The translations under genes were made by a program, and so were the position numbers. Of a stretch of 64,000 nt of DNA, positions 52,030 to 63,211 are shown piece after piece; within the stretch, counting starts at the first letter, position 1; each line of letters opens with the position of its first letter. The DNA is from a virus: the IMG/VR virus record IMGVR_UViG_3300031485_000046; one strand, 5' to 3'. The notes beneath the pieces are model-generated. The model was given only the letters and a program-made list of their open reading frames with translations, was not told the origin of the DNA and did no database searches.

Positions 52030-53304
52030 TTAATCCTCCTTAGCATCCATACAATCGTCCCATTTCGCACAATCATCACATTCATCATATTCTTCACAAT
52101 CTTTTCCGAATACATGACCGTGCGGACACTTGTTCTTTCCAGCTTTCTTATTTACCTTTTCTTCTTTCTTTCCCTTTTTAGCAGGTTCTTCTTTCAGTTT
52201 CTTTCTACCAGTACCATCACAGGGATTGCATACGCCCCCTCTAGAATTCTTACCAGTACCCTTGCAAGCCACACATTTTTCCTTTTCCGGAATATCTTCC
52301 TCTTCTTCCTCTTCTTCTACTTCATCATCATCTTCATCATCGTCCGTATCCTCTTCATCCTCCTCTTCTTCATCTTCGTCATCCGTATCTTCATCCTCAT
52401 CTTCGTCAGAGATGTCGTCCTCGTCCTCGTCATCCTCGTCAGAAGAATCATCAGCATCGTCTTCATCCTCTTCGTCAGGATCAGCCTCTTTCTTTTTCTT
52501 GGATTTCATCATACTACGGACAGAAGTTCCATCTTCTTCTTCGTCATCCTCAGTTTCATACTCAAAGAATTTAGCTTCCAGCTCATTATACGTAAGCACC
52601 TGAAGAATCTCATCCAGATTAGGAACATCTTTCAGATCCTTTTCCTTATATGGCTTTTCACGTTCTTCAAAATCAATTCTGGAGGTAGCGGCGTACTTAT
52701 TCTTACCAAACTGTTCCTCGCTGAAACGAATCTTGAGAGTAAGCCCTTCATCAGGATCAGGGAATACAGCATTCGTATCATCTTCTTCAAGTTCCTCATT
52801 CAGCTTATCCTGAAAAAGATACTGCGAAATATCCCAAATATGAGGTTTCTTTTCGTGATCCTTTGAATTCAGAGGCACCACTACGTACAAGTTCCGAAGA
52901 GAAGGCTTGAGTGCCTTCAGTTCATCGTCTTCCGCATCTCCATCTTTCACTCGCTTAGCTCGATGTTCGCAGATAGGACATTTCTTACCGAAAGTTGTGA
53001 GGCAGACAAAGGTTTCCTTATTTGCCCCTATTCCGCGATGTACTTTATACGGCTTCTTATACCACTGCTCTCCAACAGTAGCAATACCAAGATCCACATT
53101 CTTATCCATATGCTTTGGGTCTGTAACAGTATATGGAAGAATGTCGAGTGATACTCTAGAACCCGGCTCTTCTTTGAATACTCGAATATTTTTAGGCAGA
53201 TTCAGATATCCGTATTTAGAACCTTGTGCTTTCTGCTGTTTCACATTACCAGCAACTGCCGCCCTGAATTTGCTGTTACTGCCCTTTTTTCCAAGTTTAG
53301 CCAT
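52030..53304 (-). CDS. Putative ssDNA-binding protein with long acidic D/E tract and Cys-rich C-terminus
   Basis: Position in replication module; zinc-ligand-like CPICEH; function inferred. Confidence 0.55.
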   Translation of the reverse strand: MAKLGKKGSNSKFRAAVAGNVKQQKAQGSKYGYLNLPKNIRVFKEEPGSRVSLDILPYTVTDPKHMDKNVDLGIATVGEQWYKKPYKVHRGIGANKETFVCLTTFGKKCPICEHRAKRVKDGDAEDDELKALKPSLRNLYVVVPLNSKDHEKKPHIWDISQYLFQDKLNEELEEDDTNAVFPDPDEGLTLKIRFSEEQFGKNKYAATSRIDFEEREKPYKEKDLKDVPNLDEILQVLTYNELEAKFFEYETEDDEEEDGTSVRSMMKSKKKKEADPDEEDEDDADDSSDEDDEDEDDISDEDEDEDTDDEDEEEEDEEDTDDDEDDDEVEEEEEEEDIPEKEKCVACKGTGKNSRGGVCNPCDGTGRKKLKEEPAKKGKKEEKVNKKAGKNKCPHGHVFGKDCEEYDECDDCAKWDDCMDAKED

Positions 53305-54189: not shown

Positions 54190-55104
54190 TCAATTTTCTC
54201 CGCAAACAATAGAAAAACATGCAAACGTAAGTCCTGGAAATCCCGTATTGTAGAACGGTTCTATGAACTGTTCCATAACTAGCCCTGCTTGCATGTTCTC
54301 TCCCTTAAGGAGAATCGTGTTGCAGTAGCTAAGAACCAGCCTGCGAATTGACTCAGGATCTTGGTCTTTCAACTTAGTAAGAATTCCTGCCACTTTCTTC
54401 CAAGGTGCTTTTTGCATAAGAACACGGCATAATTCAATAGCATCTGATTGTACCTCAGCCGCTCTCTTTGCAACTTCTATCCGCATTTCAGCGGGCACAC
54501 CAAGCACCTGATCCAATATCTGCAACGCATTTCTTGGATGACCCTGACTATCCATAATAATCTGTTCATACACTTCTTTAGTCAATTTATGTCCTTCTGT
54601 TTTTACAACAGAACGAAGCAAGGTCATCATTTCTGAATCTGTTAACTGTTTCACCTGATACTGTGAACATCTTCCTTTTATCGTAGCAATCAATTTCTGT
54701 GGATCTGTCGTAGCCAATATATAGTAAACATGTGGTGGTGTATCTTCCAACGCTTTTAGTAGTGCGGACTGGGCATCATTGGTTAGTCGATGAACTTCAT
54801 CCAGTAACCACACTCTACATTTACCTGATAAAGGTTTATACTGCGATTGCCTGCGTATTTCCCTTACAGTTTCAATGCCTCGAAAATCAGCACTATCCAC
54901 TTCCTTAAAATCATCTTCTGAACAACCAAGTTCCGTAGCGATGATTCTACCAAGGGTAGTCTTACCACAACCGGTAGGGCCGTGCAGAAGATATGCATGA
55001 GGATGATCTTCTTTAGCCAGATCCGATTTGAGTGCCGCTACCACTTCTACGTTGCCAACAACCTCGTCAAAAGTAGCTGGACGATATTTATGATAAAGGG
55101 ACAT
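54190..55104 (-). CDS. Clamp loader subunit (AAA+; DNA polymerase III gamma/tau or RFC-like)
   Basis: KYRPATFDEVVGN, Walker A GPTGCGKTT, Walker B LLDEVH, GRCSQ sensor. Confidence 0.85.
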   Translation of the reverse strand: MSLYHKYRPATFDEVVGNVEVVAALKSDLAKEDHPHAYLLHGPTGCGKTTLGRIIATELGCSEDDFKEVDSADFRGIETVREIRRQSQYKPLSGKCRVWLLDEVHRLTNDAQSALLKALEDTPPHVYYILATTDPQKLIATIKGRCSQYQVKQLTDSEMMTLLRSVVKTEGHKLTKEVYEQIIMDSQGHPRNALQILDQVLGVPAEMRIEVAKRAAEVQSDAIELCRVLMQKAPWKKVAGILTKLKDQDPESIRRLVLSYCNTILLKGENMQAGLVMEQFIEPFYNTGFPGLTFACFSIVCGEN

Positions 55105-55510: not shown

Positions 55511-57328
55511 TTATTTGAAATGGTAATCTCCCTTCTCATTCCAAGAACAATCAACAGGACACACTTCTGCTTCTACTTCCAAGGGTACATTTATCCAGCT
55601 CCAGTGCTTAGGTAAATCTTCACAAGTAATCCTATGAACAGTAGACGCAACCATATCTAATTCGTCAGGATGCACATCCAACACCATTGCGTCATGTATC
55701 TGTCCGATCAATCTGGATTTCCAGTTCTGTTCTCTGGATATCTTGTCAACCTGAATGAACGACCATAACAGACAATGAAATGCACTTCCCTGAATAGGAA
55801 TATTTATGCATTCATTCCTACGCATGATACCAGAACATCTGAATCCTGTGTACATGCTCACATACCCGTTTTTTTGATACCCTTCCCACCACTTGTCTTT
55901 CCAACGATTATACACTTTGAATCGCCTATTCCAAAAATCATCTTCAATTTTCTTGATATGGTCCGTAAACTTATCGAAGGAATCTAGCTTGTTTGCAATC
56001 AAGTGGTCGGAAATATGACCTCCGTCATGCTCAATGCCTTCACCTTTCTTCCATTTGCCTTTAGATAATCCGCACCATTTACAAGCAATATTTTCGGCGC
56101 AGTTTACATAATAGTCACCATAGAACTGCGGAAATACAAATCCGTTCTTTGCCGCTTGCCTCATCATTTTATGCGATGGTATACTCTTGTCTAACTTATC
56201 AAGTACAAATATCTGACAAGCCATATCACCGTGCATATCCGATGAAGGATCTTCAATGTACTTTCTCATAACAGGGTCATGATGGTAACACTCGCTGATT
56301 CTTACTTCCACTCCTGAATAGTCTATTTCAAGTAGCTGGTGACCTGGCTTAGGAAATATCGCTTTGCGAGTAATCTCCATAGCCTCTTTATCTCGCTTGG
56401 GAATATTTTGGAAGTTTATCCGCTCCGATGAATTATGTACGCATATTTGGTTCACGATAAAATTATGATATTTTTCCACTTCAATATCGTACACATCTAC
56501 CGGCTCATCAAGGTACTCTATTGTGTGGTCTGTATGATTAGACAATACCTTATTAGAAAGACGTGTATCTGATAACGCCCTCGCTTGCACGTATGTTCCA
56601 TCTATTAGACGGATTTTGTGCTCAGGTGTCACATCTAAGTATCCTTTCCCACCTCCACCGTTTATAGAGTAATGGATTCGCACAACTTTCTTATGTCCTG
56701 TTTTGCCAGCCCATATAACTTTTTGAATAGAAGGGCGGAGTTTATCGTCAAAACAATACACATAATCACCCTTCTTTACATTTTCAATAGGGGTCCCTTC
56801 TGGTTGTGCTTCAAAATCTTTCATTACCAATACTTTAGATCCTTTAGCTACACAAGAGCGAAATGTCTTTACTGTATGCAAATTAAAGAAAGGATGCAAG
56901 TATCCGCCTACTTGTTCTCTTATGAAAGCATCCAGATACGTATCTCGCACCTTTTTCAATTTGCGCATTTCCAAAATCCACTTTATCTCAGGAATATCAA
57001 TCTGGGAAAGTGCTTCATCGTCTGTTGCACCCTTGCCAGATGGTGTCAACTTTGCAGGGGTGATTTTCCTAACATTGTACAAAAGGTGTGCTAACTGCCA
57101 ATTAGAATCAGGGTTAGCCTTAGCACCATACACCTTCGTCCAATGCATATAGAATTTAGTATCCCTGAGTTTTCTATCCAATCGTGCTATTTTTTTGTCA
57201 AGGTACTCTTTTTTCTTTAAGCAGTAATCAACATCAATCCGCATTCCTTCTTGTTCTGCCCTCGCAAAAGCAAGGATGCCATCTTGCAATAGCTGATATG
57301 CTTCAGGAAGATTAGGTGTCAGTTGCAT
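55511..57328 (-). CDS. DNA polymerase family A, polymerase subunit (intein-containing)
   Basis: NFQNIP, motif A DYSGVEVRI, motif B RQAAKNGFVFPQFYG, motif C QIHDAMV; start at ATG 57326-57328 with AAGGAGGG RBS. Confidence 0.9.
   Translation of the reverse strand: MQLTPNLPEAYQLLQDGILAFARAEQEGMRIDVDYCLKKKEYLDKKIARLDRKLRDTKFYMHWTKVYGAKANPDSNWQLAHLLYNVRKITPAKLTPSGKGATDDEALSQIDIPEIKWILEMRKLKKVRDTYLDAFIREQVGGYLHPFFNLHTVKTFRSCVAKGSKVLVMKDFEAQPEGTPIENVKKGDYVYCFDDKLRPSIQKVIWAGKTGHKKVVRIHYSINGGGGKGYLDVTPEHKIRLIDGTYVQARALSDTRLSNKVLSNHTDHTIEYLDEPVDVYDIEVEKYHNFIVNQICVHNSSERINFQNIPKRDKEAMEITRKAIFPKPGHQLLEIDYSGVEVRISECYHHDPVMRKYIEDPSSDMHGDMACQIFVLDKLDKSIPSHKMMRQAAKNGFVFPQFYGDYYVNCAENIACKWCGLSKGKWKKGEGIEHDGGHISDHLIANKLDSFDKFTDHIKKIEDDFWNRRFKVYNRWKDKWWEGYQKNGYVSMYTGFRCSGIMRRNECINIPIQGSAFHCLLWSFIQVDKISREQNWKSRLIGQIHDAMVLDVHPDELDMVASTVHRITCEDLPKHWSWINVPLEVEAEVCPVDCSWNEKGDYHFK
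56432..56854 (-). mobile_element. Mini-intein (141 aa) inserted in polymerase
   Basis: Begins Cys (CVAKGSKV), TPEH block B, ends YHNFIVNQICVHN followed by Ser; flanking exteins reconstitute HTVKTFRS-SERINFQNIP. Confidence 0.8.
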
Positions 57329-58590
57329 CCTATGTACCCTCCTTGCTGAATCCATCGCATTTGTTTAGATGCTAACCGGTAAGTGAACAAACTATCCATA
57401 CCACAGTATATCAATAGTTTATTCCAAATATCAGATCCTACAGGAACATCAAGCAATTTGTTCATGGAATTGCTATCTTTATCATCCGCCCCTTTAAGAT
57501 ATGGAGCGACCTCATCATCATACCCTGCTACACCAAAATTGATATAGGTTTGTATCTTCAATCCTGTGATGTCTGGTCTGTTATCAAGAATGTGTGTAGC
57601 CAACATAGTATCCCATATCCAGTTTTTTACTTCATACCCCAGAATATTTTGTGTCCATGTGTGTTCAAACTTCAGATTTTGGGCAATCTTTCCTATCTTG
57701 TCTGATTGCAAAATTTCCTTAAGCAGTCTATTTCCTTTCTTACTTTTAGGCATCCCAAAAACTATTGCATCTTCAGGATTACTACACATGGACATGCAGA
57801 TGATTTTGTGCTTGCTTGTATCATGCGGTTTAAGGCCCGTCGTTTCATAATCAATAGCAATAGAAAACGGAAACTTTCTAGAAAGAAACTCTTCAAAAAT
57901 TCCTACTAGCTCACTTTCTGATTTTACTATCTTGATAGCCGTCATTTCATCTGGATATGTTTGCATAGACATGTCCACTGTATTTAATGCCCTGTCAAGG
58001 TCCTGTTTCCATACTGTTCGATATTCCTGTGCATCTTGTTTTTCTACAAACTCTGGATGAAATATCGGGCAGATCCACGTATTGTATTTCCTATCTGGAA
58101 TAGTAAATCCTCTCCATTTATTCATTCCACCTAAATTCTTTGTCCAGATAGAACCTATCACGGAGTTTAATGCTAGTTCACCTACAAGAATTATCACTTT
58201 AGGTTTATACTGCTCAATAGTAGATAGCACTCTTCGTCGGCAACATTGAACTTCTTTTGTCCACGGATTGGTGGTTTCCTTGGACCCTGAAGCATAGCAA
58301 GACAAAGCAAAGAGATTCAGACAGTCTTTGAACAAATCAACGCCTCTACGTTCAAATTCTCGCCTAAGCGTTGTTCCAAATCTGTCTTGCCACGGTTTGC
58401 CTACTCGATCATCTCTACTGCTTGGCATATCACCAATGACCATTATTTTCTTTTCAAATTCCCCGAATGGTGCCATTCTAGGAGACGAAATATCTTTATA
58501 CAACCCACAAGAAGCGCAAGAGAAAGCCTTATTACCACTAGGCCTAGTTTTAGATTTAGTTTCTTCTACTGAAAAGAATCCACTAGCCAT
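57319..58590 (-). CDS. DNA polymerase A accessory subunit: UDG-like domain plus 3'-5' exonuclease domain
   Basis: N-terminal CASCG and IMVIGDMPS (family-4 UDG-like, variant motif); Exo I IDYETTGL; separate ORF overlapping pol subunit by 10 nt. Confidence 0.85.
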   Translation of the reverse strand: MASGFFSVEETKSKTRPSGNKAFSCASCGLYKDISSPRMAPFGEFEKKIMVIGDMPSSRDDRVGKPWQDRFGTTLRREFERRGVDLFKDCLNLFALSCYASGSKETTNPWTKEVQCCRRRVLSTIEQYKPKVIILVGELALNSVIGSIWTKNLGGMNKWRGFTIPDRKYNTWICPIFHPEFVEKQDAQEYRTVWKQDLDRALNTVDMSMQTYPDEMTAIKIVKSESELVGIFEEFLSRKFPFSIAIDYETTGLKPHDTSKHKIICMSMCSNPEDAIVFGMPKSKKGNRLLKEILQSDKIGKIAQNLKFEHTWTQNILGYEVKNWIWDTMLATHILDNRPDITGLKIQTYINFGVAGYDDEVAPYLKGADDKDSNSMNKLLDVPVGSDIWNKLLIYCGMDSLFTYRLASKQMRWIQQGGYIGCN

Positions 58591-60204: not shown

Positions 60205-61176
60205 TTATATAGTGAATAATCCTTTGCTTACTTGGAATTGAACTCCTTTGCGATATTCATTCACCCATTGCTCTAATCCTAGAATGTATCGGATGTTAAT
60301 TTCACAACGAACATCAAAGGATTGAATCTCATCATACGTGTACCCATCATCTTCAATCTGTTTTAATTTCCGAGGTGTAAGTACACCCATTCCTTTACTA
60401 GACCGTTGCTTCGATACACAAAACACCATCGGTTGCTTTGAATAATCAGGATTCTTGAATCCACCGATAGGGTACATGATAGAACCCCACGCGGCAACTA
60501 TTCTCCAAGTAGCGGCATCAGCACTAGTAAAAGGTAGCGTTTTCAGCACGGGCAACATCCATACTGCAAATCCGTGTGTTTTAACACGGATTCTATTTAT
60601 ATGGATGTAAGAAAATACTGACCGCATCCAAGATAGCCTAGATTGGACACTCATATCGTTTGCAGGTGACACTCCGATATAGTCAGTAAGTTCTACCATT
60701 TTGTGCAACCATTCCCAATCTTCTCCTTGATGGAAGACATGAATAGGAGTGATCCCTGCATCTTTCATCCTAAGAAGATTTTCGTATCCTTTCGCGGCCG
60801 CTGTATTGATAATTTTCTTATTCTCCGCAGTCTTCACTCGATTGAGATGTGTAGAAGTACCAGGAGAACCGGGGATCACATCGAGGTTGACTACCCTCAA
60901 CTTTTTATTATCATCCGCCGCTATTTGGATTGCCTCTTTAGCATAACTAATGTAGGCGTCAATGGGAATAGAATGACCTTTAGCCCATGCTGAAAACGCA
61001 CCTGAATCAAGAATGATGTTTCCATTTAATGTAGGAACTTGTCTGCACCATTCTTTAAGCTGTTTTGGATAGAGATAAGAAACCAGTCTGTTCGTAATCC
61101 GCCTGTTGAGTTCCTTACCGCGTTCTTCCTTAGGATTAAAAACAGGACCGGCAAAATACAAACGGACTGGCTTCAT
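60205..61176 (-). CDS. dpdA: DpdA-like tRNA-guanine transglycosylase-family protein (7-deazaguanine DNA transglycosylase candidate)
   Basis: ILDSGAF motif resembling TGT catalytic DSGGFQ; no zinc subdomain; adjacent to queF and queC. Confidence 0.65.
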   Translation of the reverse strand: MKPVRLYFAGPVFNPKEERGKELNRRITNRLVSYLYPKQLKEWCRQVPTLNGNIILDSGAFSAWAKGHSIPIDAYISYAKEAIQIAADDNKKLRVVNLDVIPGSPGTSTHLNRVKTAENKKIINTAAAKGYENLLRMKDAGITPIHVFHQGEDWEWLHKMVELTDYIGVSPANDMSVQSRLSWMRSVFSYIHINRIRVKTHGFAVWMLPVLKTLPFTSADAATWRIVAAWGSIMYPIGGFKNPDYSKQPMVFCVSKQRSSKGMGVLTPRKLKQIEDDGYTYDEIQSFDVRCEINIRYILGLEQWVNEYRKGVQFQVSKGLFTI

Positions 61177-61178
61177 TT

Positions 61179-61604
61179 TCAGTTACCTGTTCCGTCGTAC
61201 TCGGCAATCACCGAAATATCAGTACCACCTCTGCGATTGAAATTAGCCTCTATTCGCATGTGGTACGGTTTGCAAGCGTTCGACAGATCGTCCAGTATTT
61301 TGTTTGTAACAGACTCCATAAACGCTCCGTGCTGACGATATGCTCCCATGTATATCTTGAGTGCTTTCGTTTCCAAACAAAAATCCTTTGGAAAGTATCG
61401 AATCGTGATAGTGCCAAAATCAGGATTTCCTGTACGCGGACACAGACTGGAAAATTCCGTGAATACGAACTCCGTGGCGTATTGCCTGTCTTTGCACGGA
61501 TTATCAAATACTTCAAGAAGAGCTGGATCTGGATTATTGTACCTGTCGTACGGTACGACTGTTCCGAGGTTTTTCAGATGGTCTACATTCACTTTTCTAT
61601 CCAT
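61179..61604 (-). CDS. queF: NADPH-dependent 7-cyano-7-deazaguanine reductase QueF
   Basis: EFSSLCPRTGNPDFGT (catalytic Cys motif) and ETKALKIYM (QueF motif); start ATG 61602-61604 with GAGGAGGG RBS. Confidence 0.85.
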   Translation of the reverse strand: MDRKVNVDHLKNLGTVVPYDRYNNPDPALLEVFDNPCKDRQYATEFVFTEFSSLCPRTGNPDFGTITIRYFPKDFCLETKALKIYMGAYRQHGAFMESVTNKILDDLSNACKPYHMRIEANFNRRGGTDISVIAEYDGTGN

Positions 61605-62292
61605 TGTTTGCACCCTCCTCATAGAATACTGGGTCGATCAGATTGTTTTCTGCAAAGGCCTCAAGGCGTTCATAACAACTTCCACATTTTCCGCAAGGAT
61701 TCGGTTGGTTCTTGTAACAAGTTCTTGTAAGGTGATATGGTGCGTTATTTGCAATACCATACTGCACTATCTGACTTTTAGACATGTGAAGGAACGGTGC
61801 AAGTATATTCACATTTCTATCCGTACCAAGATAAATCGCTGTATCCATTGCTTTATGAAATTCTGGGCGACAATCAGGGTAAATAGCATGATCGCCTCTA
61901 TGAATTCCTATAGCAATATTCTCTATACCTTTTGACCACGCCATACCGGCTAGGATCGACAGGAACACTAGATTACGAGCAGGTACCACCGTCTGACTCA
62001 TATTCGATGATTCATAGTGTCCTTCCGGTATTTCTCCACCGCTTAGAAGCAGACTAGATTCCATTCCAGTAAATGCTCCGGACAGGTCTACAACTTCGTA
62101 GGTCAATTCGCAAGGAACGGCAGACACATAATATTTCAATACTGCGTCTGCCGCTCTTCGTTCGTACACATTGTGTTTGCTACCGTACTGGAAATTTACA
62201 CAATGGATTTTCTTGAATTCCTTGCGAATAAGCCAAGCAAGAACTGTTGCAGAATCCAGTCCTCCTGAGAAAGAAAGGACTGCGGAACGCAT
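61597..62292 (-). CDS. queC: 7-cyano-7-deazaguanine synthase QueC
   Basis: PP-loop SFSGGLDS; C-terminal CGKCGSC; start at ATG 62290-62292 (longer ORF-track N-terminus rejected). Confidence 0.85.
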   Translation of the reverse strand: MRSAVLSFSGGLDSATVLAWLIRKEFKKIHCVNFQYGSKHNVYERRAADAVLKYYVSAVPCELTYEVVDLSGAFTGMESSLLLSGGEIPEGHYESSNMSQTVVPARNLVFLSILAGMAWSKGIENIAIGIHRGDHAIYPDCRPEFHKAMDTAIYLGTDRNVNILAPFLHMSKSQIVQYGIANNAPYHLTRTCYKNQPNPCGKCGSCYERLEAFAENNLIDPVFYEEGANNG

Positions 62293-62293
62293 C

Positions 62294-63211
62294 TTACTTC
62301 TTCTTTCCAGCCTTCTTGCCAGCTTTCGCTTCCTTAGCCGGAGCGGTCTTTGCAGGCGCTTCCTTCTTTGCAGAAGCTTTCTTTTCCGCCATTTCTGCCT
62401 TCGCCTCCTTCTTTTTAGAAGATTTACTACCACCATCGTGCTTCACGATTTCCTTAGTGATCTTACTGCCTTTCTCACACTTGATATCCGTGAACTTCAC
62501 GATGTTGCCATCTTCCTTGTCAATGTAGATAAGCACAGGGAAGCGGCAATATTTAGGATTAGTCCCATCAGAAAGAATTGTAGAAAGAGCGGCGATGGTT
62601 GCGTCGGGGAACTGCTTTGCCGCAAGTTCGATCAGATCCTTTTTGCTGTACCGACCCTCATTGATAAGGTCGATAAAAAATTCGATCCTTTTGGCAGTCT
62701 TATTGCCACCAAATATCTCATCCTTCGTTTTCGTGGGCTTATCAGATTTTGCAGGCTTTTCTGCCTTCGGAGCCTTAGCAGGCTTTTCTTCCTTGGCTTT
62801 ACTCTTGCCCTTCTTAGGAATAGGAAGTACCTCTATTTCGTCTTCCTCTTCTTCCTCTACATCGTCACCGTCTTCGACATCTTCGTCCTCATCGCTTTCG
62901 TCCCCATCTTCCCCTTCCTCGTTGACCCCTTCATCGTCTTCGTCTTCATCGTCAGCTTCTTCGTCCCCTTCGACTTCTTCCTCATCCGCATCCTCCTCGT
63001 CGGCATCCTCTTCCTCTTCATCAGCATACTTAGCCTGAATCTGTGCAAGAATATCCATCGTTTCCTCGGAAAGTCCATCCTCTTCGCTTACAGCTTCAGA
63101 AGCCTCAAGCAGTTCAGCTTCCAGTTCGTCAGTACCGAGCTTTACATCAATGGGAGGCTCGATAATAGTATTAATCTCCTTAGCCGCCTTAACCAGTTCA
63201 CTTTTCTTCAT
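62294..63211 (-). CDS. Hypothetical protein with long acidic (D/E) and lysine-rich low-complexity tracts
   Basis: RBS TAGGAGGG; 305 codons. Confidence 0.6.
   Translation of the reverse strand: MKKSELVKAAKEINTIIEPPIDVKLGTDELEAELLEASEAVSEEDGLSEETMDILAQIQAKYADEEEEDADEEDADEEEVEGDEEADDEDEDDEGVNEEGEDGDESDEDEDVEDGDDVEEEEEDEIEVLPIPKKGKSKAKEEKPAKAPKAEKPAKSDKPTKTKDEIFGGNKTAKRIEFFIDLINEGRYSKKDLIELAAKQFPDATIAALSTILSDGTNPKYCRFPVLIYIDKEDGNIVKFTDIKCEKGSKITKEIVKHDGGSKSSKKKEAKAEMAEKKASAKKEAPAKTAPAKEAKAGKKAGKKK

What the first reader, a model, noticed from the sequence alone, without database searches (positions are those of the whole stretch)
56432..56854. Mini-intein inside the DNA polymerase gene
A 141-residue insertion begins with Cys, contains a TxxH block (TPEH) and ends with the canonical YHNF...VHN block followed by Ser. 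Removing it restores a continuous polymerase motif (HTVKTFRS-SERINFQNIP). It has no homing-endonuclease domain, so it is a mini-intein.
Basis: partly seen in the sequence, partly recalled or inferred. Interest (0 to 1): 0.6.

Follow-up and report, generated by a model that had tools for sequence, protein, structure and literature searches.

The report
Mini-intein in a phage DNA polymerase
The 141-residue insert is a genuine self-splicing protein element (a mini-intein) that has lost its homing nuclease and sits in the active-site region of a phage DNA polymerase; it is a well-understood kind of selfish element, here caught alongside empty and nuclease-bearing versions of the same gene in near-identical phages.

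Summary
Observation confirmed, interpretation supported. Window 56432-56854 (minus strand) encodes 141 residues, Cys1 to Asn141, followed by Ser. They lie in frame inside a family-A DNA polymerase gene (55511-57328, minus strand).

- **Empty site:** homologues up to 99% identical read ...HTVKTFRS|SSERINFQNIP with nothing between. A phage contig 96.6-98% identical over 7.4 kb differs structurally only by these 423 nt.
- **Full intein:** other relatives, one at 95-96.5% nucleotide identity, carry a ~359-residue intein with an HNH nuclease at the same site.
- **Origin of the mini form:** it arose by deletion of the nuclease domain; the scar is visible at DNA level.
- **Intein features:** catalytic residues are invariant (C1, T76xxH79, D123, H140, N141, Ser+1). 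The AlphaFold model (pLDDT 86) matches only intein/HINT structures. dN/dS is about 0.06-0.10, so splicing is under selection.
- **Movement:** intein and polymerase phylogenies disagree, so the element moved horizontally, apparently even after losing its nuclease.
- **Genome:** an uncultured siphovirus-like phage with its own replisome.

This is a new member of a known kind: HNH-type phage inteins and their mini derivatives. Splicing itself is inferred, not shown. Interest is modest.

The parts
55511..57328 (-). Family-A DNA polymerase (polymerase domain only) precursor gene: 605 codons plus stop, interrupted by the intein. The ORF is open back to 57355, but ATG 57328 is the start used by homologues.
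   Evidence: Pfam DNA_pol_A 6.6e-38, split around residues 168-308. Homologues start MQLTPNL. Shine-Dalgarno AAGGAGG lies 8 nt upstream of the ATG.
56855..57328 (-). N-extein (158 residues), ending ...HPFFNLHTVKTFRS.
   Evidence: Alignment A1. 96.6% nt identity to the intein-free locus L007.
56432..56854 (-). Class 1 mini-intein, 141 residues (Cys1...Asn141).
   Evidence: The gap sits exactly here in intein-free alleles.
56852..56854 (-). Cys1 codon (block A nucleophile).
   Evidence: Invariant C1 in 10 of 10 inteins at this site.
56618..56629 (-). Block B, T76-P-E-H79 (TxxH).
   Evidence: T76 and H79 are invariant.
56525..56572 (-). Linker left by loss of the HNH endonuclease domain (residues 95-110). 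The main 624-nt deletion junction lies between S105 and N106 (56539|56540).
   Evidence: DNA alignment to the full intein of L002 shows deletions of 27, 3 and 624 nt, shared with L003/L004. This is the lowest-pLDDT stretch of the model.
56453..56497 (-). Block F, D120-VYDIEVEKYHNFIV-134, containing D123 and H130.
   Evidence: D120, V121, Y122, D123, E125, N131, F132 and I133 are invariant. TIGR01443 match to residues 120-141.
56429..56446 (-). Block G, I137-C-V-H140-N141, plus the +1 Ser codon (56429-56431).
   Evidence: V139, H140 and N141 are invariant. S309 is invariant in all 16 polymerases of A1.
55511..56431 (-). C-extein (306 residues plus stop). It starts SSERINFQNIP and contains motif A (DYSGVEVRI) about 35 residues downstream.
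   Evidence: 98.5% nt identity to L007.
57319..58590 (-). Separate ORF for the family-4 UDG-like and 3'-5' exonuclease domains of the polymerase (423 aa). It is translationally coupled to the polymerase ORF: its TGA stop codon (57319-57321) lies 4 nt downstream of the polymerase ATG (57326-57328), so the two ORFs overlap by 10 nt.
   Evidence: Pfam UDG 1.9e-13 and DNA_pol_A_exo1 1.9e-12. The same two-ORF layout occurs in L002, L003, L084, L086 and L087.

Best explanation
Window 56432-56854 (minus strand) encodes a class 1 mini-intein in the polymerase subunit of a split family-A DNA polymerase of an uncultured tailed phage. It is translated as part of a 605-residue precursor.

Inferred mechanism (by homology, not shown here): the intein folds into a HINT domain and removes itself by the canonical four steps.
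1. An N-S acyl shift at Ser(-1)-Cys1, assisted by T76/H79.
2. Transesterification to the hydroxyl of Ser+1.
3. Cyclisation of Asn141, assisted by H140 and the block-F Asp/His.
4. An O-N acyl shift that joins ...KTFRS to SSERINFQNIP.

This restores the conserved primer-terminus-binding motif. HMMER aligns it to Klenow TGRL|SSTDPNLQNIP. From memory, that is next to E. coli Pol I Arg668.

Evolutionary origin: the element descends from a roughly 359-residue homing intein with an in-frame HNH_3 endonuclease that still circulates at the same site in sister phages. The endonuclease was deleted, leaving a short disordered linker. The splicing domain is kept by purifying selection, because a non-splicing insert at this position would inactivate the phage's replicative polymerase.
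For: - **Precise presence/absence.** Intein-free alleles read FRS|SSER. L007 is 96.6-98.0% identical over 7.4 kb, gapless except for the 423 nt.
- **Same site, full intein.** Sister alleles carry a full intein with PF13392 HNH_3. L002 is 95.3-96.5% identical in its flanks.
- **Deletion scars.** They are visible at DNA level and shared with L003/L004. L084 has an independent deletion.
- **Catalytic residues.** C1, T76, H79, D123, H140 and N141 are invariant among inteins at this site. Ser+1 is invariant among polymerases.
- **Fold.** AF2 model with pLDDT 86.3 and pTM 0.81. The listed top 50 Foldseek PDB hits (52 at E<=1e-3) are all inteins or HINT domains. Ssp and Npu DnaB mini-inteins reach TM 0.75.
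- **Profiles.** PF14890 scores 36.4 against a cut-off of 35.8. TIGR01443 scores 29.9 against 15.6.
- **Selection.** Intein dN/dS is 0.06-0.10, comparable to the exteins at 0.03-0.13.
- **Site usage.** The same DNA_pol_A profile position (121|122) is interrupted by related inteins in fused and split PolA architectures.
- **Sporadic distribution.** 11 occupied against 62 empty sites among the classifiable loci, IMG/VR relatives plus four loci fetched by exact protein and the window.
- **Horizontal movement.** Window vs L003: intein dS 0.68 while extein dS is saturated. Window vs L002: intein dS 1.46 while extein dS is 0.18-0.33.
Against: - No experiment: splicing is inferred from sequence, fold and selection only.
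- The Pfam score is borderline. The excised segment alone scores 35.5, just under the 35.8 cut-off.
- The best sequence matches to solved inteins are weak (E 6.5e-5 at best).
- The AF2 alignment had only 10 sequences.
- The window's intein is a mosaic. Its first 50 codons are 63-83% identical to its nearest mini relatives and the rest 80-100%. A recombinant could in principle be impaired, although all catalytic residues are intact.
Confidence: 0.9

Rival explanations
1. The 141 residues are a fixed, non-splicing accessory domain of the polymerase: a HINT-like insertion retained in the mature enzyme.
For: HINT-fold domains without splicing function exist; BIL and hedgehog domains appear among the fold hits. 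The insert is under purifying selection, which a functional domain would also show.
Against: 62 of 73 classifiable homologous loci lack it entirely, including genomes 96-98% identical. It interrupts the invariant TGRxS|SxxPNxQNIP motif beside the primer-terminus contact. All splicing residues, including Asn141 and Ser+1, are invariant. Its phylogeny disagrees with that of the polymerase.
Confidence: 0.02
2. It is a dead intein remnant that no longer splices, so the polymerase gene in this genome is non-functional (a defective phage or an assembly of a non-viable variant).
For: The window's intein is a recombinant mosaic. The endonuclease has already decayed, showing that the element is in the degenerative phase of the homing cycle.
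Against: The reading frame is intact and all catalytic residues are present. dN/dS is 0.09-0.10 against its mini relatives. The identical protein occurs on an independently assembled 60.6-kb contig. The same mini form persists in lineages separated by dS about 0.26-0.68. No second replicative polymerase was seen in the ORFs annotated in the window.
Confidence: 0.04
3. It is a conditional, environment-sensing intein whose splicing, and hence polymerase activity, is regulated, for example by a redox-sensitive disulfide involving Cys1, rather than a purely selfish passenger.
For: Cys34 is invariant alongside Cys1 in all ten inteins at this site. Cys138 is present in most. The intein sits at a functionally critical site, as Novikova et al. 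noted for replisome inteins (PMC4760082).
Against: Nothing here tests regulation. Near-identical phages do without the intein, so it is dispensable. The sporadic distribution, mosaicism and endonuclease-bearing sisters fit a selfish element.
Confidence: 0.08

Closest known systems
HNH_3-containing phage inteins, e.g. the dCTP deaminase intein of cyanophage vB_AphaS-CL131 (PMC6293099); in-frame HNH inteins in actinobacteriophage DNA polymerases (bioRxiv 10.1101/2025.01.02.630785)
   Same: The full-length sister alleles at this site (P0001, P0005, P0006 and others) have the same architecture: HINT N-part, HNH_3 endonuclease, HINT C-part. They also sit in a phage nucleotide/replication enzyme. 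The CL131 intein was shown to self-excise in E. coli.
   Different: The window's copy has lost the HNH domain. The host protein and insertion site differ. No sequence comparison with the CL131 intein was run here.
Unannotated intein in the DNA polymerase (gp74, UUV43815.1) of Rhodobacter phage RcKickapoo, OP009274.1
   Same: It is the only cultured-phage PolA hit in the GenBank phage set. Its intein N-part is 35.8% identical over residues 1-94 (E 2e-8). It has Cys1, a ...CVHN|S end and an HNH-like motif inside, and it interrupts the same TGRxS..PNxQNxP motif.
   Different: It is inserted one codon further downstream (TGRSA|C...N|SDNP against TFRS|C...N|SSER). It is roughly 320 residues long and still carries its endonuclease. 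Its polymerase is a single fused UDG-exo-pol protein of 1247 aa. Polymerase identity is only about 27%.
Structurally characterised class 1 mini-inteins: Ssp DnaB (1mi8), Npu DnaB (4o1r), Npu DnaE (4kl5), Mtu RecA splicing domain (2in0)
   Same: Predicted fold with TM 0.67-0.75. Size about 140 residues. Cys1, TxxH, a terminal HN, and Ser+1 as in the DnaB inteins.
   Different: Only 19-23% sequence identity. Several of those mini forms were engineered by deleting the endonuclease, whereas this one is a natural deletion. Different host proteins.
PhoCDC21-1 intein (6rpp/6rpq)
   Same: Best sequence match among solved structures (E 6.5e-5). Shares TP.H in block B and VYD..V..YHNF..N.I.VH in blocks F/G.
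   Different: An archaeal MCM/Cdc21 host protein; a distant relationship only.
Intein presence/absence polymorphism among near-identical phage genomes in metagenomes (Bellas et al. 2020, PMC7468147) and the homing-cycle model
   Same: Empty, full and degenerate alleles coexist among phages of at least 95% nucleotide identity.
   Different: Here all three states are resolved for one site in PolA, with the deletion scars and recombination mosaics defined at nucleotide level.

Membership tests
Intein (class 1, HINT superfamily) | In-frame insertion in a conserved host protein, absent from close homologues with a seamless junction | tested here: met
   P0007/8/9/11 and L001/L007/L008 read FRS|SSER. 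62 of 73 loci are empty.
Intein (class 1, HINT superfamily) | Block A: Cys/Ser/Thr nucleophile as first residue | tested here: met
   Cys1, invariant in 10 of 10.
Intein (class 1, HINT superfamily) | Block B: TxxH | tested here: met
   T76-P-E-H79. T and H are invariant.
Intein (class 1, HINT superfamily) | Blocks F/G: conserved Asp/His in F, penultimate His, C-terminal Asn | tested here: met
   D123, H130, H140 and N141. TIGR01443 scores 29.9 bits against a cut-off of 15.6.
Intein (class 1, HINT superfamily) | +1 extein nucleophile (Cys/Ser/Thr) | tested here: met
   Ser309 of the ORF, invariant in all 16 polymerases of A1.
Intein (class 1, HINT superfamily) | HINT fold | tested here: met
   Predicted only: AF2 pLDDT 86.3. 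The listed top 50 Foldseek hits are inteins, BIL or hedgehog domains, with TM up to 0.75.
Intein (class 1, HINT superfamily) | Curated profile match above threshold | tested here: met
   PF14890 scores 36.4 against 35.8 on the whole protein, which is marginal; the isolated segment scores 35.5. TIGR01443 is clearly above its cut-off.
Intein (class 1, HINT superfamily) | Autocatalytic protein splicing | not testable with these tools
   Indirect support only: dN/dS 0.06-0.10 and the essential host site.
Mini-intein | No homing-endonuclease domain in frame, out of frame or antisense | tested here: met
   141 residues. No HNH or LAGLIDADG hit. tblastn with the HEN part of P0001 finds nothing significant in the window (best E 1.4). 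Alternative-frame ORFs are not conserved among mini alleles.
Class 3 intein | WCT triplet with an internal block-F Cys nucleophile, and no Cys1/Ser1 | tested here: not met
   Has Cys1. Block F reads DVYDIEVEKYHNF, with no WCT.
Bacterial intein-like (BIL) domain | Located in variable, non-conserved proteins; no conserved +1 nucleophile; not flanked by a restorable conserved motif | tested here: not met
   It sits in the invariant PolA motif with an invariant Ser+1. Excision restores the motif. The BIL structures 2lwy and 6y75 are only fold-level hits.

The most novel reading that the evidence does not exclude
The endonuclease-less mini-intein is still mobile: it spreads between phage lineages as a parasite of its full-length relatives. 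The HNH endonuclease made by a co-infecting phage with the full intein would cut empty polymerase alleles, and repair could copy either the full or the mini form.

Evidence compatible with this:
- The window and L003/L004 share the same three deletion scars, which indicates a single origin of this mini form.
- Their intein dS is 0.68 while their exteins are saturated. The window's closest genomes are empty or carry a different, full intein.
- Eleven synonymous changes are packed into the 27 nt flanking the junction relative to the nearest empty allele (binomial p about 5e-11). The C-side 12 nt match the other occupied alleles. The +1 Ser codon is TCN in 11 of 11 occupied alleles against 28 of 62 empty ones (Fisher p = 5.5e-4).
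- The HNH domains in the population are under purifying selection, with dN/dS 0.06-0.24.

Ordinary homologous recombination during co-infection, without any targeted cut, explains the same data.
Probability: 0.3. Interest if true: 0.5.

Novelty: new member of a known kind. Interest (0 to 1): 0.3.

Why it matters
- **Annotation.** The polymerase gene should be described as a 605-aa precursor giving a ~464-aa mature enzyme. The related intein in the cultured phage RcKickapoo is not annotated in its GenBank record.
- **Intein biology.** One PolA site offers all stages of the homing cycle within a single phage population at about 95-98% nucleotide identity: empty, full HNH intein, partly decayed, and at least two independent mini forms. 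There is also evidence of recombination inside the intein and of movement after endonuclease loss. This is a convenient natural system for asking whether mini-inteins are mobilised in trans.
- **Practical use.** A compact natural 141-residue Cys1/Ser+1 mini-intein with several natural variants could be screened as a protein-engineering tool.
- **Limits.** None of this changes current understanding of inteins.

Tried and rejected
- **Plus-strand translation.** Translating the given coordinates on the plus strand gives stop-ridden nonsense; the feature is on the minus strand.
- **Megablast of the 6-kb region.** No match against GenBank phages. The closest deposited phage polymerases are only 24-27% identical.
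- **Word-indexed protein search with the 141-aa intein alone.** It returned only one fragment and cost one capped search. The exhaustive profile search did the job instead.
- **Hidden homing endonuclease, out of frame or antisense.** Such arrangements are reported for some 'mini' inteins. The 140-aa antisense ORF 56672-57094 and other alternative-frame ORFs are not conserved in L003, L004 or L084. Rejected.
- **Another copy of the intein or of its HNH elsewhere in the 64 kb.** None found. A cis or neighbouring free-standing endonuclease of this family is rejected.
- **Programmed frameshift joining the exonuclease and polymerase ORFs.** A Shine-Dalgarno sequence and an ATG overlapping the upstream stop, conserved across relatives, indicate two coupled ORFs instead.
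- **Literature.** Searches found no named PolA intein allele at this site. Novikova et al. list bacterial Pol I among intein hosts without site detail in the main text.

Full report
**Observation**

The gene lies on the minus strand. ORF 55511-57355 encodes a 614-residue protein. Residues 168-308 correspond exactly to window 56432-56854 and read CVAKGSKVLV...DVTPEHKIRL...VDVYDIEVEKYHNFIVNQICVHN, followed by SSERINFQNIP. The plus-strand translation of the same coordinates is full of stops.

The true start is most likely ATG 57328, giving a protein that begins MQLTPNL. It lies 8 nt downstream of AAGGAGG, and the stop of the upstream ORF lies just inside it, 4 nt after the ATG. Homologues start there too.

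**What the host gene is**

- The flanks match Pfam DNA_pol_A (6.6e-38). The profile is interrupted between positions about 121 and 122.
- The spliced form aligns to Klenow fragment and Taq. The window's ...KTFRS|SSERINFQNIPKRDKE lies over ...ATGRL|SSTDPNLQNIPVRNEE, and motif A (DYSxxExRI) follows about 35 residues later.
- From memory, the Arg two residues before the insertion corresponds to E. coli Pol I Arg668, a primer-terminus contact. That numbering was not checked here.
- The 3'-5' exonuclease and a family-4 UDG-like domain are encoded by a separate, translationally coupled upstream ORF, 57319-58590.

**What the genome is**

The surrounding window is a tailed phage.

- Structural and packaging genes: large terminase, portal, head protein, tape measure and a J-like tail fibre.
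- Replication and recombination genes: helicase, clamp, clamp loader, SSB, RecA and SbcCD-like proteins.
- A QueC/QueF/DpdA-like 7-deazaguanine cluster.

Nothing in GenBank phages is close. Megablast finds nothing, and the best polymerase identity is 27%.

**Is it an intein?**

- *Profiles.* Pfam Intein_splicing scores 36.4 bits on the whole protein (cut-off 35.8) and 35.5 on the excised segment. TIGR01443 intein_Cterm scores 29.9 bits (cut-off 15.6).
- *Solved structures by sequence.* The best hits are inteins: PhoCDC21-1 at 6.5e-5, a BIL domain, and the Aes123 PolB1 intein.
- *Conserved residues.* An alignment of ten inserts from this site has invariant C1, T76, H79, D123, N131, F132, H140 and N141. 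Ser+1 is invariant in all polymerases aligned.
- *Fold.* The AlphaFold2 model (pLDDT 86.3, pTM 0.81) is all-beta. The 50 Foldseek PDB hits listed are all inteins or other HINT domains. Ssp and Npu DnaB mini-inteins reach TM 0.75.
- *Linker.* The only weakly predicted stretch is residues about 95-110, which is where the endonuclease is inserted in sister alleles.

**Comparison with homologues (decisive)**

A protein search returned three length classes.

| Class | Length | Content | Examples |
|---|---|---|---|
| Empty | ~464 aa | DNA_pol_A only | P0007, P0008 (99% and 96% identical to the window over the aligned exteins) |
| Mini | ~605-644 aa | adds Intein_splicing | P0002-P0004, P0039, P0041 |
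| Full | ~815-837 aa | adds HNH_3 | P0001 (97% identical in the exteins), P0005, P0006 |

- In the alignment, the short class reads HTVKTFRS|SSERINFQNIP with nothing between. All inserts begin with Cys and end with HN at the same point.
- Among 73 classifiable loci (IMG/VR relatives plus four loci fetched by exact protein and the window), 62 are empty. Three carry 141-residue inserts, two carry 183-residue inserts and six carry 357-366-residue inserts.
- At DNA level the window is 96.6-98.0% identical to the empty-site contig L007 over 7.4 kb, with no gap other than the 423 nt. It is 95.3-96.5% identical to L002, which carries a 1077-nt full intein.
- Gene order is the same in all relatives.

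**Origin of the mini form**

- Aligned to the full intein of L002, the window's intein shows deletions of 27, 3 and 624 nt. The 624-nt deletion removes the whole HNH region.
- L003 and L004 share exactly these scars. L084 has an independent 615-nt deletion with different end points.
- P0027 keeps a partial HNH domain. P0039 and P0041 have other linkers.
- Endonuclease loss has therefore happened several times at this site.
- The HNH domains that remain are under purifying selection (dN/dS 0.06-0.24) and keep the HH..N..H motif. They are probably active.

**Selection and mobility**

- The mini-intein's dN/dS is 0.098 (window-L003), 0.093 (window-L004) and 0.059 (L003-L004). The exteins give 0.03-0.13. 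This fits a requirement to keep splicing.
- Phylogenies disagree.
  - Window against L003/L004: exteins 76-80% identical with saturated dS, but the intein is 85% identical with dS 0.68.
  - Window against L002: exteins 92-96% identical with dS 0.18-0.33, but the intein is 77% identical with dS 1.46.
- The window's intein is itself a mosaic. In 10-codon windows, the first five windows (codons 1-50) are 63-83% identical to L003/L004. Windows six to eleven (codons 51-110) are 87-100% identical. The nearest relative for codons 1-60 is L084, at 83%.
- The full inteins of L002 and L087 are 100% identical in the splicing-domain segments compared, although their exteins are only about 74% identical. 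That indicates a very recent transfer.
- Against the nearest empty allele, 11 synonymous differences are packed into 15 nt on the N side and 12 nt on the C side of the junction (binomial p about 5e-11). The C-side codons match the other occupied alleles.
- The +1 Ser codon is TCN in 11 of 11 occupied alleles, against 28 of 62 empty ones (Fisher p = 5.5e-4).
- These are the expected marks of homing with co-conversion. They also suggest, without proving, that the mini form was transferred after it lost its nuclease.

**Breadth**

- A profile of the ten inserts finds 4075 representatives at E<=1e-3 and 102 at E<=1e-30.
- Of eight sampled hits, seven are PolA proteins of several architectures (fused UDG-exo-pol, exo-pol, pol only). 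In six of the seven, the intein match ends exactly where DNA_pol_A profile position 121-123 resumes. The eighth is a T4-like portal protein with several inteins.
- Among cultured phages, Rhodobacter phage RcKickapoo has a related HNH-type intein in its polymerase. It is unannotated and lies one codon downstream.

**Comparison with what is known**

- HNH-type inteins in phage genes are described, and one was shown to self-excise (PMC6293099; bioRxiv 10.1101/2025.01.02.630785).
- Bacterial Pol I is a listed intein host (PMC4760082).
- Intein presence/absence among near-identical metagenomic phages has been reported (PMC7468147).

The element is therefore a new member of a known kind.

**What is shown and what is inferred**

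- Shown: the sequence features, the precise presence/absence, the deletion scars, the predicted fold, the selection and the discordant phylogenies.
- Inferred: splicing chemistry and activity, endonuclease activity of the sister alleles, and the route of transfer.

**Verdict**

Observation confirmed and interpretation supported. It is an ordinary but cleanly documented mini-intein. Interest is 0.3.

Noticed in passing
window 57319-58590 (-) and 55511-57328 (-): The family-A polymerase is split into two translationally coupled ORFs. One encodes a UDG-like domain plus the 3'-5' exonuclease (423 aa); the other encodes the polymerase domain. A Shine-Dalgarno AAGGAGG precedes the polymerase ATG, and the upstream ORF's stop codon lies 4 nt after it. 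This layout is conserved in L002, L003, L084, L086 and L087. More distant relatives (P0125, P0130, RcKickapoo gp74) have one fused protein.
   Followed up: partly
window 60205-62436 (-): A 7-deazaguanine pathway cluster: a DpdA/TGT-like protein (60205-61176, phrog_887 1e-41), QueF-like (61179-61622) and QueC (61597-62436). It suggests the phage DNA carries a modified guanine. Whether this affects cutting by the HNH homing endonuclease was not examined.
   Followed up: partly
L087 5700-7742 (NCBI GCA_019137235.1, JAGVSS010000015.1): In this relative the clamp-loader gene is 680 aa and carries its own intein (Hom_end_hint plus Intein_splicing). The window's clamp loader (54190-55104) is 304 aa and intein-free. 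Several replisome genes of this phage group are therefore intein targets.
   Followed up: no
L002 8001-10472 vs L087 3001-5466: The full HNH inteins of two phages whose polymerase exteins are only about 74% identical are 100% identical at nucleotide level in the splicing-domain segments compared. Their endonuclease middles differ. This points to very recent transfer plus recombination inside the intein.
   Followed up: partly
L088 875-4618 (Rhodobacter phage RcKickapoo OP009274.1, gp74): The deposited 'DNA polymerase' of 1247 aa contains an unannotated intein with an HNH-like motif (TGRSA|CFVAGT...VCVHN|SDNPNGQNFP). It is inserted one codon downstream of the window's site in the same motif.
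   Followed up: partly
window 52030-53304 (-): An SSB-like protein (phrog_1192) has an unusually long Asp/Glu-rich tract of about 100 residues. Cys-rich CxxC-type motifs follow at the C-terminus.
   Followed up: no
window 56672-57094 (+): A 140-codon antisense ORF spans the intein/N-extein border. It is not conserved in the other mini-intein alleles and looks spurious.
   Followed up: yes
P0122 (1801 aa): A T4-like portal protein (Portal_T4) gives five Intein_splicing stretches in Pfam (seven stretches with the A2 profile), some related to this intein family. It is an extreme case of multiple inteins in one phage structural gene.
   Followed up: no
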